DNA of 64,000 bases from Promethearchaeota archaeon (lineage in GTDB: Archaea > Asgardarchaeota > Lokiarchaeia > Sigyniarchaeales > SOKP01). This document shows, one piece after another, positions 3,045 to 10,912 of this stretch. Made by a program: the position numbers and the translations under genes. The DNA lies in NCBI GenBank assembly GCA_048939015.1, contig JBHLPW010000004.1:50663-114662 (forward strand). Direction: 5' to 3'. The notes beneath the pieces were generated by a model. The model was given only the letters and a program-made list of their open reading frames with translations, did not search any database and was not told the DNA's origin. Positions within the stretch are counted from its first letter, which is position 1. Every line of letters begins with the position of its first letter.

Positions 3045-3509
3045 ATTAAGATTACTCAAGCAACAGGAGAAGATATTCCTGAGATTGTAGAACTTTGGAA
3101 GGAACTTGCTGATCATCATTCAAAATTAGATTCTTTTTTCACAAGGAGGAAGGATGGACACATCAACTTTAAACCCTTTATATCTGATTTGATTGAATCT
3201 GATGATGCAAAGATATTTGTAGCATTCGAGGATGATCAAATCATAGGGTATACAGTTCCTAAGATCGATCAATATTCACCAGTTTATCTTTTAGAAAAGC
3301 ATGGTTCTATTTATGATATGTTTGTAAGTTTGGAGCATAGAAGAAGAGGGATTGGAAAAAAATTATGGGAGGAAGCTCTTAGATGGTTCAAGGGATTAGG
3401 ATTAGAAAGAGTAGAATTGAGTATTGTACCGACTAATCCTGAATCTTCATCTTTCTGGAAAAAACAAGGATTTTCTGATTATACGCATAGATTATATATC
3501 AAAATTTGA
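3045..3509 (+). CDS. GNAT family N-acetyltransferase (probable ATT start)
   Basis: Acetyl-CoA motif V..EHRRRGIGKKL and C-terminal FWKKQGF. Frame extends upstream to IKITQATGEDIPEIVELWKEL, bounded by in-frame TAG at 3033. Confidence 0.85.
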   Translation: MKITQATGEDIPEIVELWKELADHHSKLDSFFTRRKDGHINFKPFISDLIESDDAKIFVAFEDDQIIGYTVPKIDQYSPVYLLEKHGSIYDMFVSLEHRRRGIGKKLWEEALRWFKGLGLERVELSIVPTNPESSSFWKKQGFSDYTHRLYIKI

Positions 3510-6089: not shown

Positions 6090-8135
6090 ATGTCAAAATT
6101 AAAAGTAAAAAGAGTTATTATATTTAAGCATGGAGTATCCTATTACATTCTTGAAGGAATCCTTAAGGGTTCTGGTAATTTTGAACTTGAATTCAAAATT
6201 GATGAGATGAATGATGTATTAAAATCACTTTTTGTTTTGGATACGAGTAAAAATGGTTATATTTCATCAATATCTTATGATGCTGCCTTAGATACTGACC
6301 AATTACTAAGATCTATAATGTTAAACATCCCTGATCGTGATTCTTTTTCTTCACTTGTAACCCAGATAAAAGGTGCTGAAGTGGTTTTAACTGTTGGTGG
6401 TGCTAAGAAAGTTTCTGGAAAAATTATGGGGATTGAGTATGTTGAAAAATTGAGTAAAGTTGAAAAAATCACTGAAAAATTATTAACACTTCATCAAGAT
6501 GATGGTACGATAACCAAATATAACTTTTCAGAGATTAAATCATTAGAAATTATGAATGATGAGATTAAAAAGGATTTGAAATTCTTCTTAGACACAGTGA
6601 TTGCTGGAAAGAAGAAAGATGCTAAAAAAATAATTATTAATTGTGAATCTGGAGGAGATGATGAGATTGATAGGAACATTTTTGTGTCCTATATACGTGA
6701 AAGTCCAATCTGGAAAACCTCATATCGATTAATTATGAGTAAGGAACAAGCATTAGAGCAAAAATGTTTACTATCTGGTTGGAGTCTTATCGAAAACACC
6801 ACAAATCAAGATTGGGAAGATATAGAATTATCTCTGGTTGCTGGCATGCCGGTTTCATTTATTTATGAATTTTATAGACCTATTTTTATCCAAAGACCAA
6901 TCATCCAACCACCGAAAGTCCTAAGCGCTAGACCTACTGAAATTGAAGAAGGATTAGAAATGGAGAAATTTACGGAGTATGCTATGGATGAATTGGAAGC
7001 TGCACCTGTAGCTAAAAAAAGAAAAGCAGAAGTCATGAGAACGGGTATGCGTCCTCCTCCAGCACCAGCAGGAGGAATAGGTTTTGCACGAAGTGTTATG
7101 TCAGATGCAGAAATGTTTGATAAAGTAAAATCTCAGGTCAAGACCCAAACAAAAGATCTAGGGGAATTATTTGAATATAATATATCAAATCCAGTAACAA
7201 TTAAACGTAAGCAATCGGCGTTAGTGCCAATCCTTACTGAATCGATTAAAGCGAAGAGAATTTTACTTTATAACAAGAATGAACATGATAAAAATCCTAA
7301 TGCTTGTCTAGAAATTACTAATAATACTAATCTAACACTGGAGAGAGGTCCTGCAACAATCATATATGATGACAATCTTGCAGGTGAAGCGATAATTCCT
7401 TTTTTAAACAAAAGTGATACAAGGTTGCTGAATTATGCTGTAGAACAAGCTGTAATTATAACTTATGAGCAGAAATCCGAAAACTTAAATGTTCATAAAG
7501 TCACTTTTGAAAGTGGATATTCTTATGAATATTATTACACTAATTCAATGACTATATACAAAATTAAAAACAAAACTGAAGAGGAAAAGGAACTTTACCT
7601 TGATCATCCAAAAACCTATGATTTTAAAATTATAGAGAAACCGATTGAGCCTGAAGAAACTCCTAATTATTGGCGATTTAAAATTACTTTAAAACCAAAG
7701 GATGCTATTAATTTTAAACTAAAGGAACAGAGAGAAAATTATTCAAGTGCATATTTATGGAATTATAGCAAGGATGATTTATTAAAACGAGTTAGTTTTT
7801 ATGTCAAAAAGAAATTTATCGAACCAGACCTAGAAAATCGTCTAAAAGAAATTGCAGTATTGATTCAAACTCTAAATGAATTAAGGGCTAAACAAGAAAA
7901 ATTGAATGAAGAGAGAGATATTATGACTGATGAACAATCTCGTCTAAGAGAAAATATTTCGGTTCTTGGTGAAGACAGTCAATCAATATCATTAAAGGAA
8001 CGGTATATAAAGAAATTAAGTGATCAAGAGAGTAGATTTGAGGAGATTAAAAAAGAACTTAAAGATCTGGATAAAAAAGTAAAGGACTTAAATAAAACAA
8101 TCGAAGAAAATATGAATTCACTCTCAAAACCTTAA
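6090..8135 (+). CDS. DUF4139-like protein with C-terminal coiled coil
   Basis: VIIFKHGVSY, PIWKTSYRL, ENTTNQDWEDIELSLVAG and LGELFEY motifs; heptad-rich C-terminus. Confidence 0.7.
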   Translation: MSKLKVKRVIIFKHGVSYYILEGILKGSGNFELEFKIDEMNDVLKSLFVLDTSKNGYISSISYDAALDTDQLLRSIMLNIPDRDSFSSLVTQIKGAEVVLTVGGAKKVSGKIMGIEYVEKLSKVEKITEKLLTLHQDDGTITKYNFSEIKSLEIMNDEIKKDLKFFLDTVIAGKKKDAKKIIINCESGGDDEIDRNIFVSYIRESPIWKTSYRLIMSKEQALEQKCLLSGWSLIENTTNQDWEDIELSLVAGMPVSFIYEFYRPIFIQRPIIQPPKVLSARPTEIEEGLEMEKFTEYAMDELEAAPVAKKRKAEVMRTGMRPPPAPAGGIGFARSVMSDAEMFDKVKSQVKTQTKDLGELFEYNISNPVTIKRKQSALVPILTESIKAKRILLYNKNEHDKNPNACLEITNNTNLTLERGPATIIYDDNLAGEAIIPFLNKSDTRLLNYAVEQAVIITYEQKSENLNVHKVTFESGYSYEYYYTNSMTIYKIKNKTEEEKELYLDHPKTYDFKIIEKPIEPEETPNYWRFKITLKPKDAINFKLKEQRENYSSAYLWNYSKDDLLKRVSFYVKKKFIEPDLENRLKEIAVLIQTLNELRAKQEKLNEERDIMTDEQSRLRENISVLGEDSQSISLKERYIKKLSDQESRFEEIKKELKDLDKKVKDLNKTIEENMNSLSKP

Positions 8136-8162
8136 TATAAATACAATTTTAATTTTTTTATT

Positions 8163-8867
8163 ATGCAAAAACAAATAGAAATCCCACGATTCAAAAGTTT
8201 TTTATATCGCAGTGCATGGCTTTATAATGCAATTACTCGGCGACTGTATAATCAAGACAAAAAATTTCTTACAATAGCTTTACTTATTGGAAAAGGTCCA
8301 AAAAAAGTTTTAGATATGCCATGTGGCACTGGTTATTTAATGAGGTTTCTAGATCCCGCAATAGAATATGAAGGTGTAGATTTAAATCGTCGATTTTTAA
8401 AGCGTATAAAAAATAAAGAGCTCAAAAAAAGAAATATAAAATTAAAGAAAATTATATTACACCAAAAAGATATTTTCGAGTTTGATAATTATAAAGGGGA
8501 AATAAAAGATGTTATCATTATTAGTGATATTCTGCATCATATTTACCCAAAACACATTGAATTAATTAATATAGCAAAGAAAATCTCACGAAAAGTTATA
8601 ATTTGTGAACCTTACACTGTTAAGCCTAAGAAGATTACTGCCCAAGATAAGATTTTTAAAATTATTATTTTTTTTGGTAAATTTCTGCCAGAAGCAATAT
8701 TCAAAATAGTTGATTTCTTCTTTTTAGATAATGATGGTATTAATTCTTACCAAAATAGATCAAAATGGAATCATAACAAAAAAAGCCTAAAACAATTATT
8801 AGAGAATTTGGGATTTACAAAAATCTACAAATTATTTGATGAATATATCGGTATTTGGGAATATTAA
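8163..8867 (+). CDS. Class I SAM-dependent methyltransferase
   Basis: VLDMPCGTG motif I, GVD acidic motif, ILHH motif. Confidence 0.85.
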   Translation: MQKQIEIPRFKSFLYRSAWLYNAITRRLYNQDKKFLTIALLIGKGPKKVLDMPCGTGYLMRFLDPAIEYEGVDLNRRFLKRIKNKELKKRNIKLKKIILHQKDIFEFDNYKGEIKDVIIISDILHHIYPKHIELINIAKKISRKVIICEPYTVKPKKITAQDKIFKIIIFFGKFLPEAIFKIVDFFFLDNDGINSYQNRSKWNHNKKSLKQLLENLGFTKIYKLFDEYIGIWEY

Positions 8868-8892
8868 AAATTCATAGAGGTTTAGTAAGAAA

Positions 8893-9561
8893 TTGAAAGT
8901 CACATTATCATTATGGGATACTGGAGGACAAGAACGGTTTGATTTTTTTAAAACAGACTTTTTTAAGGGAGTTGCAGTTCTAGGTTTGGTTTTTGATTTA
9001 AGTCGCCCAAATACCTTTGATAAAATAGATGACTATTTTAATGAAATTCGAGATAGATCTGGAAACATTCCGATTTTTTTAATAGGAAATAAAAACGATT
9101 TAAAACAAGATATTGGAGAGATAATACCAAGAGAAAAAATTATTCAAAAATTAAATCAATATTATTTATTTGAATACGTAGAAACATCTGCTTTAGAGGA
9201 TAAAAATGTAGAAAAATTGTTTTATAGATTTGCACTCACTGCTTTACTCGATTTTAAACCTAGACTTGGTGAAATTGTTGATTCTAATCATTTTCGATTT
9301 AAAGTTTTACTCGCTGGTGCAGCAGCAGTAGGAAAATCTTCTTTAATAAGAACATTTACAAAAAAAAGCTTTGAACAAGATTATAAATTAACGATTGGTT
9401 TGGACTTCATGATACAGGATCTTGAAATTCATGATGAGGATATTCCCATTGAAACTCAAGAATTAATAAAGAAATCATCGAAAGGATACAAAAAATTAGT
9501 TAAAAAATATCGCAAAAGAGAAGAAATAACTGAAATGATCGAAGTTCTAAAAGAAGCGTAA
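8893..9561 (+). CDS. Circularly permuted Rab-like small GTPase (motif order G3-G4-G5-G1-G2)
   Basis: WDTGGQE at aa 8-14, NKND 66-69, ETSAL 97-101, GAAAVGKS 142-149, TIGLDF 167-172. Confidence 0.85.
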   Translation: MKVTLSLWDTGGQERFDFFKTDFFKGVAVLGLVFDLSRPNTFDKIDDYFNEIRDRSGNIPIFLIGNKNDLKQDIGEIIPREKIIQKLNQYYLFEYVETSALEDKNVEKLFYRFALTALLDFKPRLGEIVDSNHFRFKVLLAGAAAVGKSSLIRTFTKKSFEQDYKLTIGLDFMIQDLEIHDEDIPIETQELIKKSSKGYKKLVKKYRKREEITEMIEVLKEA

Positions 9562-9581
9562 GGATTTTTACTTGAAACTTA

Positions 9582-10577
9582 TTAAACAAAGTGTTTTTGA
9601 CTTGCGATCATATCTGCTTCATGAACTAAATTGGCTAGTTCATTCATTTCTATAGGATAATATTTACTCCATTGACCGTGATGGAATATTATTGCTTTAT
9701 ATATATCATCATCATAAAATAAGATATCTTTATTTTTTCTAAGAACTGCTATTGCCTCTTCAACGTGGTGATGCCTACCCTCATAATTAAATTTTCTTAC
9801 TATCTCTTCATGAACACGGTCTAATTCTTCGCGTTCTACAATGATCTTAGATGAAAAATCCTTTTTTCTATAAGAATAATACGATATTTTTCCAAAATCG
9901 TGATATATTGCTGTTAAAACCGCTTTTTTAAGATCTATTTGATCGATCATAGAATTACTCAATTTAAAGGTATAATTTGTTACTAATAAGATATGATCAA
10001 AAAGACCCCCTATATACCCTCCATGAAATCCTCTTAAGGCTGCTGGTAATTTTTTTGCTTCTTTCAAAATGTCTCTTAGAAATTCTTTTGTTGAATCAGA
10101 AAGTTCAATAAGATCAAAAAAGAAATCAAATCCCTTATAATCGAAATTTATCTCCTTTTCAAGATCTTTATTTATAAAGTGGTTATAATCTGAAAAGTCA
10201 ATATGATTACTCTGAAAAAGCTTGACTTTCTTCTCATCGAACTCTTTTAGAAACCAGTTAGCTAATGCTGAATCTTTTTTATTTAGAAGGTAAAAAAATT
10301 TTACGATATGTTTGCAAAATCTATTATTAGGTTTTTTTCTTGCTAAATAATCAGGACAATCATGATTAATAAAATTGTATAAAGTCTTCTGAGAAATATC
10401 AAAATTAATTTTATATGGAACTAATTTATTTCCTTGTACTTCAGCCTCAATTATTCCATTTTCTTTATCAATTTTCAGAATTCTTATACAATCATCTGAA
10501 ATGGATTTAGCGCGATCCAAAGTTTTTTTATCACTAAAAATCTTAAGCTTCTCTTCAAAGTTGTATTGATTAACCAT
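9582..10577 (-). CDS. SWIM-like Zn finger fused to an HD domain (YhaM-like HD motif)
   Basis: AEVQG..PY, HDCPD...FCKH; FHGGYIGGLFDH, YHDFGK, FHHG, HEADMIAS. Confidence 0.75.
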   Translation of the reverse strand: MVNQYNFEEKLKIFSDKKTLDRAKSISDDCIRILKIDKENGIIEAEVQGNKLVPYKINFDISQKTLYNFINHDCPDYLARKKPNNRFCKHIVKFFYLLNKKDSALANWFLKEFDEKKVKLFQSNHIDFSDYNHFINKDLEKEINFDYKGFDFFFDLIELSDSTKEFLRDILKEAKKLPAALRGFHGGYIGGLFDHILLVTNYTFKLSNSMIDQIDLKKAVLTAIYHDFGKISYYSYRKKDFSSKIIVEREELDRVHEEIVRKFNYEGRHHHVEEAIAVLRKNKDILFYDDDIYKAIIFHHGQWSKYYPIEMNELANLVHEADMIASQKHFV

Positions 10578-10699
10578 ATTTTTTATTATTAATTTTGAAA
10601 AATATTTAAACCAATAGTCTCATATTAATTTAAGTTTTTAAACCAAAAAAAATTAAATAATCATGTCCTTAATATTTTAAAAAATGTAAGGTGTGAAAT

Positions 10700-10912
10700 T
10701 TGAGTATTGAAGAACTGCAAGATGAAGTTGATAAATTATTAGAAGAAATGGATGAACTTCAAGAAGTTTGTGATACACTCCCCCAATGTGATGAAGATGA
10801 TGGCTGTGCTACATGTGAGACAAATAAAAAAATTGAAGCGCTTGAACAAAAAATTGAAGATCTAGAGAATAGAGTAGAAGCACTATTAGGCGAAGAAGAA
10901 GAAGAAGATTAA
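10700..10912 (+). CDS. Small acidic coiled-coil protein with a 4-Cys loop
   Basis: SD-like AAGGTG before a TTG start; two heptad helices flank C-x5-C-x5-C-x2-C. Confidence 0.7.
   Translation: MSIEELQDEVDKLLEEMDELQEVCDTLPQCDEDDGCATCETNKKIEALEQKIEDLENRVEALLGEEEEED

What the first reader, a model, noticed from the sequence alone, without database searches (positions are those of the whole stretch)
8893..9561. Circularly permuted Rab-like GTPase with G3-G4-G5-G1-G2 order
Seen: the protein starts at strand beta3 (KVTLSLWDTGGQERF), runs through G4, G5 and helix 5, crosses a ~14-aa linker, then beta1/P-loop (FKVLLAGAAAVGKSS), switch I and beta2 (TIGLDFMIQDLEI), and ends in a charged tail with a basic patch. 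Each motif occurs exactly once. Only 25 nt separate it from the upstream gene, leaving no room for a lost N-terminus. Established: Ras-fold termini are close together, and the beta2-beta3 hairpin is a surface loop. Known permuted GTPases (YlqF/YawG family, cpRAS) use G4-G5-G1-G2-G3. Inference: this is a different permutation that cuts the interswitch hairpin linking switch I and switch II.
Basis: partly seen in the sequence, partly recalled or inferred. Interest (0 to 1): 0.85.

Follow-up and report, generated by a model that had tools for sequence, protein, structure and literature searches.

The report
Circularly permuted Asgard Rab-like GTPase
This archaeal gene encodes a real, strongly conserved GTP-switch protein whose two halves are in swapped order; the same swap is already known from the rare eukaryotic cpRAS domain, but here it probably arose separately, in a family whose relatives carry a membrane anchor.

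Summary
ORF 8893-9561 (+) encodes one complete Ras-fold G domain in the order G3-G4-G5-G1-G2. The chain is cut in the beta2/beta3 hairpin, and helix 5 is joined to strand 1 by a 13-aa conserved linker. All nucleotide-binding residues are intact.

It is not a remnant. Of the 120 best-scoring homologues, 119 share the breakpoint; the other is a partial record. dN/dS is about 0.07-0.09. The AlphaFold2 model (pLDDT 82.8, pTM 0.81) is a normal GTPase fold.

cpRAS (Elias and Novotny 2008) already has exactly this order and cut, so this is not a new permutation type.

What appears undescribed is the setting:
- It is archaeal, found only in two related Asgard families among 301 genomes searched, and in 22 of 22 genomes of its own genus.
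- It is Rab-like rather than Ras-like, and stand-alone.
- The permuted proteins form a single clade.
- More distant members, and some close ones, carry a C-terminal transmembrane anchor. Long forms add a proline-rich spacer and an unnamed domain.
- The window's copy lacks the anchor and ends in a cationic amphipathic helix.

Best reading: a membrane-associated Rab-like switch that was permuted independently of cpRAS. The scan has flagged the same family on other genomes.

The parts
8877..8881 (+). GAGGT Shine-Dalgarno-like motif, 11 nt before the TTG start. It overlaps the last base of the in-frame TAG at 8875-8877.
   Evidence: Read from the sequence. Orthologues start 0-1 codon further upstream with ATG.
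8893..9561 (+). Gene for the circularly permuted Rab-like GTPase (222 aa, TTG start, TAA stop).
8917..8931 (+). G3 / switch II motif DTGGQ (aa 9-13), at the end of strand beta3, which opens the protein.
   Evidence: D9, G12 and Q13 are invariant in the 35-sequence alignment A2.
9088..9099 (+). G4 motif NKND (aa 66-69).
   Evidence: K67 and D69 are invariant and N66 is nearly invariant.
9184..9192 (+). G5 motif TSA (aa 98-100).
   Evidence: S99 and A100 are invariant.
9250..9288 (+). New connection from helix 5 to strand 1 (aa 120-132, DFKPRLGEIVDSN). It carries the family signature P-R-L-G-E.
   Evidence: G126 is invariant; R124 and D120 are nearly invariant even in the long forms. The linker is as conserved as the core (0.71 against 0.63-0.82).
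9316..9339 (+). G1 / P-loop GAAAVGKS (aa 142-149).
   Evidence: G142, G147 and K148 are invariant. Verified in the sequence.
9382..9429 (+). Switch I / G2 threonine (T167, in YKLTIGLDF) and strand beta2 (aa 164-179). This is the last element of the G domain.
   Evidence: Y164, T167 and D171 are invariant. The segment aligns to Rab23 residues 5-54.
9433..9558 (+). C-terminal tail (aa 181-222). It has a conserved D-I-P-x-E-T, then a long predicted helix with a cationic amphipathic stretch (net charge up to +10 in 18 residues, muH about 0.6). There is no transmembrane segment and no cysteine.
   Evidence: Relatives continue into a TM helix.
8163..8867 (+). Upstream SAM-dependent methyltransferase gene, 25 nt away. 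It is a conserved neighbour in the window's own genus and in genus g6.
9582..10577 (-). Convergent HD-domain phosphohydrolase gene, 20 nt from the stop. It is a neighbour in genera g1 and g8.

Best explanation
The gene encodes a functional small GTPase of the Ras superfamily, closest to Rab proteins, with a circularly permuted chain. It starts at strand beta3/switch II (G3), runs through G4, G5 and helix 5, crosses a conserved 13-residue linker into strand beta1/P-loop (G1), helix 1, switch I (G2) and strand beta2, and ends in a C-terminal tail.

Shown:
- All nucleotide- and Mg-binding residues are intact.
- The predicted fold is a normal G domain.
- The family is under strong purifying selection.
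- All permuted members, short and long, form one clade.
- Full-length permuted copies were found only in one order of Asgard archaea.
- The more distant members searched, and some close ones, end in a C-terminal transmembrane helix (tail anchor).
- Long forms carry a proline-rich spacer, an unnamed conserved domain and TM helices.

Inferred:
- The permutation happened once in that lineage. A likely route is a fused tandem pair of Rab-like genes that lost both outer ends; such tandem arrays are common in these genomes.
- It happened independently of eukaryotic cpRAS.
- The protein works as a GTP/GDP switch held at the membrane through its C-terminus. That terminus leaves the domain from beta2, at the interswitch, instead of from helix 5 as in Rab or Ras.
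- The window's copy has lost the TM anchor. It most likely binds membranes peripherally, or binds a partner, through its cationic amphipathic helix.
For: Order and breakpoint: Pfam Ras matches in two stretches. phmmer against PDB gives aa 133-182 = Rab11 5-54 and aa 5-113 = Rab11 59-165.

Rab affinity of both halves: the top PDB hits are Rab11, Rab23, Rab7, Rab7L1, Rab30 and a Thorarchaeota Rab.

Fold:
- AF2 gives pLDDT 82.8 and pTM 0.81, with low confidence mainly at the two switch regions and the far tail.
- aa 1-119 superpose on beta3-alpha5 of Rab/Rho at 1.5-2.0 A, Z about 12.
- G4-G5-G1-G2-G3 cpGTPases (the chain of entry 8pv1, YlqF 1puj, YqeH) align colinearly over aa 13-177. This places the P-loop half correctly relative to the rest.

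Conservation:
- 640 homologues were found. The best 120 are 72-100% identical, and all but one partial record have the same layout.
- Invariant residues include D9, G12, Q13, K67, D69, S99, A100, G142, G147, K148 and T167.
- dN/dS is 0.07-0.09.

Single clade: on a tree of de-permuted sequences, 26 permuted proteins plus one 91-aa permuted fragment group together, with SH-aLRT 99.

Distribution: full-length matches occur in 34 of 301 genomes of the phylum, only in family f1 (31/68) and family f2 (2/7, same order). They occur in 22 of 22 genomes of the window's genus. A profile search gave the same set.

Anchors: TM tails are seen. The window's tail is amphipathic and cationic.

Tandem Rab-like genes occur in the same genome and genus.
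Against: - There is no biochemical evidence for GTP binding, GTP hydrolysis or membrane binding.
- The model's coordinates could not be inspected, so beta2-beta3 pairing is inferred from superpositions.
- Independence from cpRAS rests on motif type (TIGLDF against the TIE reported in the paper), Rab-like best hits and distribution. It does not rest on a tree that includes cpRAS sequences, which I could not obtain.
- No surviving tandem-fusion intermediate specifically related to the clade was found. Tandem proteins in the tree are recent internal duplications elsewhere.
- The tail is well conserved in sequence, which fits a protein partner as well as a membrane.
- No gene co-varies convincingly with this one.
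Confidence: 0.75

Rival explanations
1. The Asgard family and eukaryotic cpRAS share the permutation by descent: one ancient event, inherited by or transferred to the eukaryotic stem.
For: - The motif order and cut site are identical.
- Asgard archaea are the closest prokaryotic relatives of eukaryotes.
- A 2026 paper lists CPRas as potentially present in LECA.
Against: - cpRAS is described as a typical RAS-family domain with a TIE G2 motif, embedded in large VWA or COG2373-like proteins.
- This family has TIGLDF and best-hits Rabs in both halves. It is stand-alone or tail-anchored.
- It was found in only one order out of 30 families of the phylum searched.
- Its nearest neighbours on the tree are canonical metagenomic, Asgard-type Rab-like GTPases.
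Confidence: 0.06
2. It is a decaying remnant of a tandem double GTPase (deletion product) or an annotation or assembly artefact, with no function of its own.
For: Tandem Rab-like genes and fused multi-GTPase proteins exist among relatives.
Against: - The same layout appears in hundreds of independent assemblies.
- dN/dS is 0.07-0.09.
- All G motifs are invariant.
- The fold prediction is confident.
- The gene is present in 22 of 22 genomes of the genus.
Confidence: 0.02
3. The free beta2 and beta3 ends make the protein an obligate strand-swapped dimer or oligomer, or a nucleotide-binding but non-hydrolysing scaffold, rather than a monomeric switch.
For: - The cut removes the covalent hairpin between switch I and switch II.
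- The long C-terminal helix could form a coiled coil.
Against: - AF2 models a closed monomer with pTM 0.81.
- The catalytic Gln13 and all G motifs are invariant.
- Nothing here tests oligomeric state.
Confidence: 0.1

Closest known systems
cpRAS domain of eukaryotic CPRas proteins (Elias and Novotny 2008, Biol Direct 3:21, PMC2430557)
   Same: Ras-superfamily G domain with the order G3-G4-G5-G1-G2. The chain is cut between strands 2 and 3, and helix 5 is joined directly to strand 1.
   Different: cpRAS, as the paper describes it:
- It is Ras-family (TIE G2 motif).
- It lies inside large proteins with a VWA domain or a COG2373-like region.
- It is eukaryote-specific and scattered in distribution.

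This family:
- It is Rab-like (TIGLDF).
- It is stand-alone or C-terminally tail-anchored.
- It was found only in one Asgard order.
- It has its own conserved PRLGE linker.
Canonical Asgard Rab-like small GTPases (for example the Thorarchaeota Rab, PDB 7ezb) and eukaryotic Rab11, Rab23 and Rab7
   Same: These are the best sequence matches for both halves (E 1e-23 and 1e-8 to 1e-10). They share the fold, the G motifs and Rab-type switch I/interswitch residues.
   Different: - They have the canonical G1-G5 order.
- Eukaryotic Rabs are anchored by C-terminal prenyl-cysteines placed after helix 5. Here the C-terminus follows beta2 and there is no cysteine at all.
YlqF/YawG (YRG) circularly permuted GTPases (YlqF 1puj, YqeH, RsgA/YjeQ, Nog2-type)
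   Same: Circularly permuted P-loop GTPases. They align colinearly with aa 13-177 of the model (Z 10-12.6).
   Different: Their order is G4-G5-G1-G2-G3, with the cut between strand 3 and helix 2. They belong to the TRAFAC ribosome-assembly factors, not the Ras superfamily, and are universal and ancient.

Membership tests
Ras superfamily small GTPase (Pfam PF00071 Ras) | All five G motifs are present with their key residues: GxxxxGK[ST], switch I Thr, DxxGQ, NKxD and SA. | tested here: met
   GAAAVGKS 142-149, T167, DTGGQ 9-13, NKND 66-69 and TSA 98-100. These residues are invariant or nearly so in alignments A1 and A2. Pfam Ras gives E 8e-36.
Ras superfamily small GTPase (Pfam PF00071 Ras) | Six-stranded alpha/beta G-domain fold. 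| tested here: met
   The AF2 model has pLDDT 82.8 and pTM 0.81. Superpositions on Rab, Rho and Ras give rmsd 1.5-2.0 A and Z about 12. Superposition on the permuted YlqF-type GTPases covers aa 13-177.
Ras superfamily small GTPase (Pfam PF00071 Ras) | Canonical sequential order G1-G2-G3-G4-G5. | tested here: not met
   The order is G3-G4-G5-G1-G2.
Rab family | Closest sequence affinity to Rab proteins, including a Rab-type switch I/beta2 motif (TIGxDF). | tested here: met
   Both halves best-hit Rab11, Rab23, Rab7, Rab30 and the Thorarchaeota Rab. No Ras or Rap entry is among the 60 listed hits of either half, and no Rho or Arf entry among those of the whole-protein search. The motif TIGLDF is present.
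Rab family | C-terminal cysteine prenylation motif after a hypervariable region that follows helix 5. | tested here: not met
   The protein contains no cysteine. Its C-terminus follows beta2. Relatives use a TM helix instead.
cpRAS (Elias and Novotny 2008) | G3-G4-G5-G1-G2 order, with the break between strands 2 and 3. | tested here: met
   definition.
cpRAS (Elias and Novotny 2008) | RAS-family identity, with the TIE G2 motif. | tested here: not met
   G2 reads LTIGLDF and the best hits are Rabs. No cpRAS sequence was available for a direct comparison.
cpRAS (Elias and Novotny 2008) | Embedded in a large protein with a VWA domain or a COG2373-like region. | tested here: not met
   Pfam finds only GTPase families in the 222-aa protein and in the long forms P0128, P0132 and P0137.
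cpRAS (Elias and Novotny 2008) | Eukaryote-specific distribution. | tested here: not met
   All colinear relatives that carry a source name are named as Asgard archaea, bar one labelled only 'archaeon'. Genome hits fall only in two related Asgard families.
YlqF/YawG (YRG) circularly permuted GTPases | G4-G5-G1-G2-G3 order, with G3 after G2. | tested here: not met
   G3 is at the N-terminus, and nothing follows beta2 except the tail.

The most novel reading that the evidence does not exclude
The permutation is adaptive. It hangs the membrane tether (a TM anchor, or here a cationic amphipathic helix) directly on strand beta2 of the interswitch. GTP-dependent movement of switch I and the interswitch would then be passed mechanically to the tail. 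This would be Arf-like coupling of nucleotide state to the membrane, reached through a different topology, in a lineage that lacks Rab prenylation.
Probability: 0.15. Interest if true: 0.8.

Novelty: new variant of a known kind. Interest (0 to 1): 0.55.

Why it matters
Anand and colleagues argued that cutting the beta2/beta3 turn should stop a GTPase from folding. cpRAS was the single counter-example.

A second lineage, apparently independent, now keeps this topology under strong purifying selection. That suggests the interswitch hairpin is a naturally permissible place to open the Ras fold.

This is also the first prokaryotic case that I could find. It sits in Asgard archaea, whose expanded small-GTPase sets are central to ideas about the origin of eukaryotic membrane trafficking.

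How Asgard small GTPases reach membranes without prenylation is an open question. Here the anchor is genetically encoded (a TM tail or a cationic helix), so the question can be tested directly.

The short, cysteine-free 222-aa protein is an easy target for structure determination and biochemistry.

Tried and rejected
- Literature searches for a permuted Asgard or archaeal small GTPase found nothing relevant in the held library. The preprint opened uses 'permutation' only in the statistical sense.
- The search for homologous proteins with 'longer' lengths gave only rotifer multi-GTPase proteins and one other hit. It found no cpRAS.
- The ESM Atlas searches by features and by shape returned only canonical small-GTPase clusters. 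TM by query was at most 0.60, and no same-topology cluster appeared. Small clusters are not in that library, so this is weak evidence.
- I considered the acidic 70-aa coiled-coil protein at 10700-10912 as a partner for the basic tail. I rejected it as a linked gene. It occurs in 103 of 121 genomes of the family, including genera without the permuted GTPase (g4 36/41, g2 4/4). It was not found in genera that have the GTPase (g3 0/5, g8 0/1).
- Neighbourhood conservation decays to the acyl-CoA dehydrogenase gene alone in genus g3, and to nothing in family f2. No partner can be named from it.
- A homodimer prediction (2 copies with GTP and Mg) returned 'no answer', score 0.00. This is not evidence either way.
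- YN00 dN/dS failed numerically because dS is near saturation. The NG86 values are reported instead.

Full report
**1. The observation**

- The ORF at 8893-9561 (+) encodes 222 residues from a TTG start.
- An in-frame TAG lies five codons upstream (8875-8877), and GAGGT sits 11 nt before the start.
- The upstream methyltransferase gene ends at 8867, 25 nt away. No N-terminal half can be hidden there.
- Pfam's Ras model matches at E 8e-36 in two stretches, and aa 2-114 cover profile positions 47-157.
- phmmer against PDB sequences aligns aa 133-182 to Rab11 residues 5-54 and aa 5-113 to Rab11 residues 59-165. The chain is therefore opened in the beta2/beta3 turn.
- Helix 5 is joined to strand 1 by residues 120-132.

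**2. It is a real, conserved gene**

- A search of 5.8 billion proteins gave 640 hits. The best 120 are 72-100% identical and 197-277 aa long.
- All but one partial record place G3 at residues 8-26 and the P-loop exactly 134 residues later. The alignment shows the same N-terminus, M-x-[KN]-[VI]-TLSLWD.
- In a 35-sequence alignment that includes 38-43% identical paralogues, the following are invariant: D9, G12, Q13, K67, D69, S99, A100, G142, G147, K148 and T167.
- dN/dS against two orthologues at 79-82% amino-acid identity is 0.07-0.09, with dS near saturation.
- The window's 4.86-Mb genome has one such gene. Its dozens of other small-GTPase loci (97 matched segments, two per gene for many) are all in canonical order.

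**3. The fold**

- AlphaFold2 on the alignment gives mean pLDDT 82.8 and pTM 0.81.
- The predicted elements run beta3, alpha2, beta4, alpha3, beta5, alpha4, beta6, alpha5, linker, beta1, alpha1, beta2, then a long C-terminal helix.
- Confidence is low mainly at the two switch regions and the far tail.
- Sequential structure aligners place aa 1-119 on beta3-alpha5 of Rab, Rho and Ras structures at 1.5-2.0 A (Z about 12).
- The G4-G5-G1-G2-G3 permuted GTPases (the chain of entry 8pv1, YlqF 1puj, YqeH 3h2y, RsgA) align colinearly over aa 13-177.
- Together these matches show that both halves occupy their normal positions in a G domain.

**4. What is already known**

That is incorrect.
- Elias and Novotny (2008, PMC2430557) introduced cpRAS precisely as a second permutation type, G3-G4-G5-G1-G2, lacking the connection between strands 2 and 3. 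They presented it against the earlier claim that such a cut would impair folding.
- The topology in the window is therefore the cpRAS topology, not a new one.
- The paper describes cpRAS as a typical RAS-family domain with the TIE G2 motif. It lies inside large VWA or COG2373-like proteins and is eukaryote-specific.
- A 2026 paper lists CPRas as possibly present in LECA.

**5. How this family differs**

- Both halves of the protein best-match Rab proteins: Rab11, Rab23, Rab7, Rab7L1, Rab30 and a Thorarchaeota Rab. G2 reads TIGLDF.
- Pfam finds only GTPase families in the protein and in its long relatives.
- Named relatives are all Asgard MAGs, bar one labelled only 'archaeon'.
- In 301 genomes drawn evenly across the phylum, full-length colinear matches occur in 34. 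They fall only in family f1 (31/68) and family f2 of the same order (2/7). None were found in 226 genomes of 28 other families.
- In the window's own genus the count is 22 of 22. A profile built from the alignment recovered the same set. Its weaker hits cover only the beta3-alpha5 half or cross stop codons between adjacent genes.
- The single hit in genus g4 (G099, contig C223) is probably a mis-binned contig. That genome also holds a second, g1-like copy of the neighbouring acidic gene on the same contig.
- Submitters' labels on 75-84% identical orthologues (Thor-, Odin-, Hod-, Hermodarchaeota) do not fit this narrow distribution. They should be treated with caution.

**6. One origin**

- I re-ordered the permuted sequences into canonical order inside a script. 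I then built a tree with canonical single-domain relatives and the separated domains of tandem proteins.
- All permuted proteins, short and long forms from f1 and f2, form one clade with SH-aLRT 99. It lies among canonical metagenomic or Asgard-type Rab-like GTPases.
- Domains of tandem proteins pair with each other elsewhere in the tree, so no surviving intermediate was identified.
- Tandem Rab-like genes are frequent in these genomes. This makes the classical route of duplication, fusion and loss of both ends plausible, but it remains an inference.

**7. The C-terminus**

- Members from other genera (g3, g6, g8; 49-61% identity) end in a hydrophobic TM helix, as do about a tenth of the close orthologues. 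It follows a conserved basic helix and a spacer.
- A sister group of long forms (280-755 aa, 38-45% identical) carries the permuted G domain, often a proline-rich disordered stretch, a conserved unnamed domain and one or two TM helices.
- The window's protein stops 20 nt before the convergent HD gene and lacks the TM segment.
- Its tail is a predicted helix with a strongly cationic amphipathic part, with net charge up to +10 in 18 residues and hydrophobic moment about 0.6.
- The protein has no cysteine, so prenylation is excluded.
- The helix 5-strand 1 linker carries a P-R-L-G-E signature. It is as conserved as the core.

**8. Genomic context**

- Within the genus the order is Arf-like GTPase, thioredoxin-like, DUF4139/MuiA-like 681-aa protein, methyltransferase, permuted GTPase, HD (opposite strand), acidic 70-aa coiled-coil protein, acyl-CoA dehydrogenase.
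- Genus g6 keeps DUF4139, methyltransferase, GTPase and the acidic protein in that order.
- Genus g8 keeps only HD and the dehydrogenase. Genus g3 keeps only the dehydrogenase. Family f2 keeps nothing.
- In genus g4, which lacks the gene, DUF4139 and the acidic gene are adjacent. The methyltransferase-GTPase-HD block is missing.
- The acidic protein does not co-vary with the GTPase. No partner can be named.

**9. Verdict**

- The best explanation is a functional Rab-like GTP switch that was permuted once in a Lokiarchaeia-type Asgard lineage, independently of cpRAS.
- It was ancestrally tail-anchored. In this genome it is reduced to a cationic amphipathic tail.
- I found no description of it in the searchable literature, though subscription journals are not covered.
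- An earlier follow-up in this scan, on another genome, reached the same reading. I had reached the cpRAS paper independently, before seeing that note.

Noticed in passing
P0128, P0130, P0132, P0137, P0144; L027:7412-8731: These are long-form permuted GTPases (428-755 aa). Each has a Pro-rich disordered spacer, then a conserved C-terminal domain with motifs such as KTTVFY..QMNP and PLDARKD..F.ITP, then TM helices. Pfam finds no match for the C-terminal domain.
   Followed up: partly
L029 (G065:C2:50000-63000), compared with window 6090-10912: In a sister genus without the permuted GTPase, the DUF4139 gene and the acidic 70-aa gene are adjacent. The three-gene block methyltransferase-GTPase-HD therefore behaves as one indel.
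   Followed up: partly
window 10700-10912 (+): This encodes a 70-aa, very acidic coiled-coil protein with four cysteines (CDTLPQC...CATC). It is conserved in 103 of 121 genomes of the family and has no family assignment.
   Followed up: partly
window 6090-8135 (+): This encodes a 681-aa protein with no Pfam hit at E 0.01. By Atlas features and a weak TIGR02231 match it looks DUF4139/MuiA-like. It has a C-terminal coiled coil and is 78-87% identical in the related Asgard genera compared (70% in the most distant).
   Followed up: partly
G000:C21:90492-92330 (own genome, outside the window): Three canonical Rab-like GTPase genes lie head to tail. Similar adjacent pairs in the same genus score E 3.5e-50 against the permuted profile across the gene junction (G216:C16:42500-43030).
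   Followed up: no
G099:C223:2983-4944: This is the only permuted-GTPase hit in genus g4. It lies on a small contig that also holds a g1-like second copy of the acidic gene. The contig is probably mis-binned.
   Followed up: partly
one search hit list: Orthologues that are 75-84% identical carry submitters' labels from five different Asgard 'phyla' (Loki/Prometh-, Thor-, Odin-, Hod-, Hermodarchaeota). The genome search places the gene in one order only, so the labels look unreliable.
   Followed up: no
window 3189-3509 (+): This 106-aa ORF matches only the C-terminal two thirds of the GNAT acetyltransferase profile (positions 31-116 of 116). The start may be mis-called, or the gene may be truncated.
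   Followed up: no
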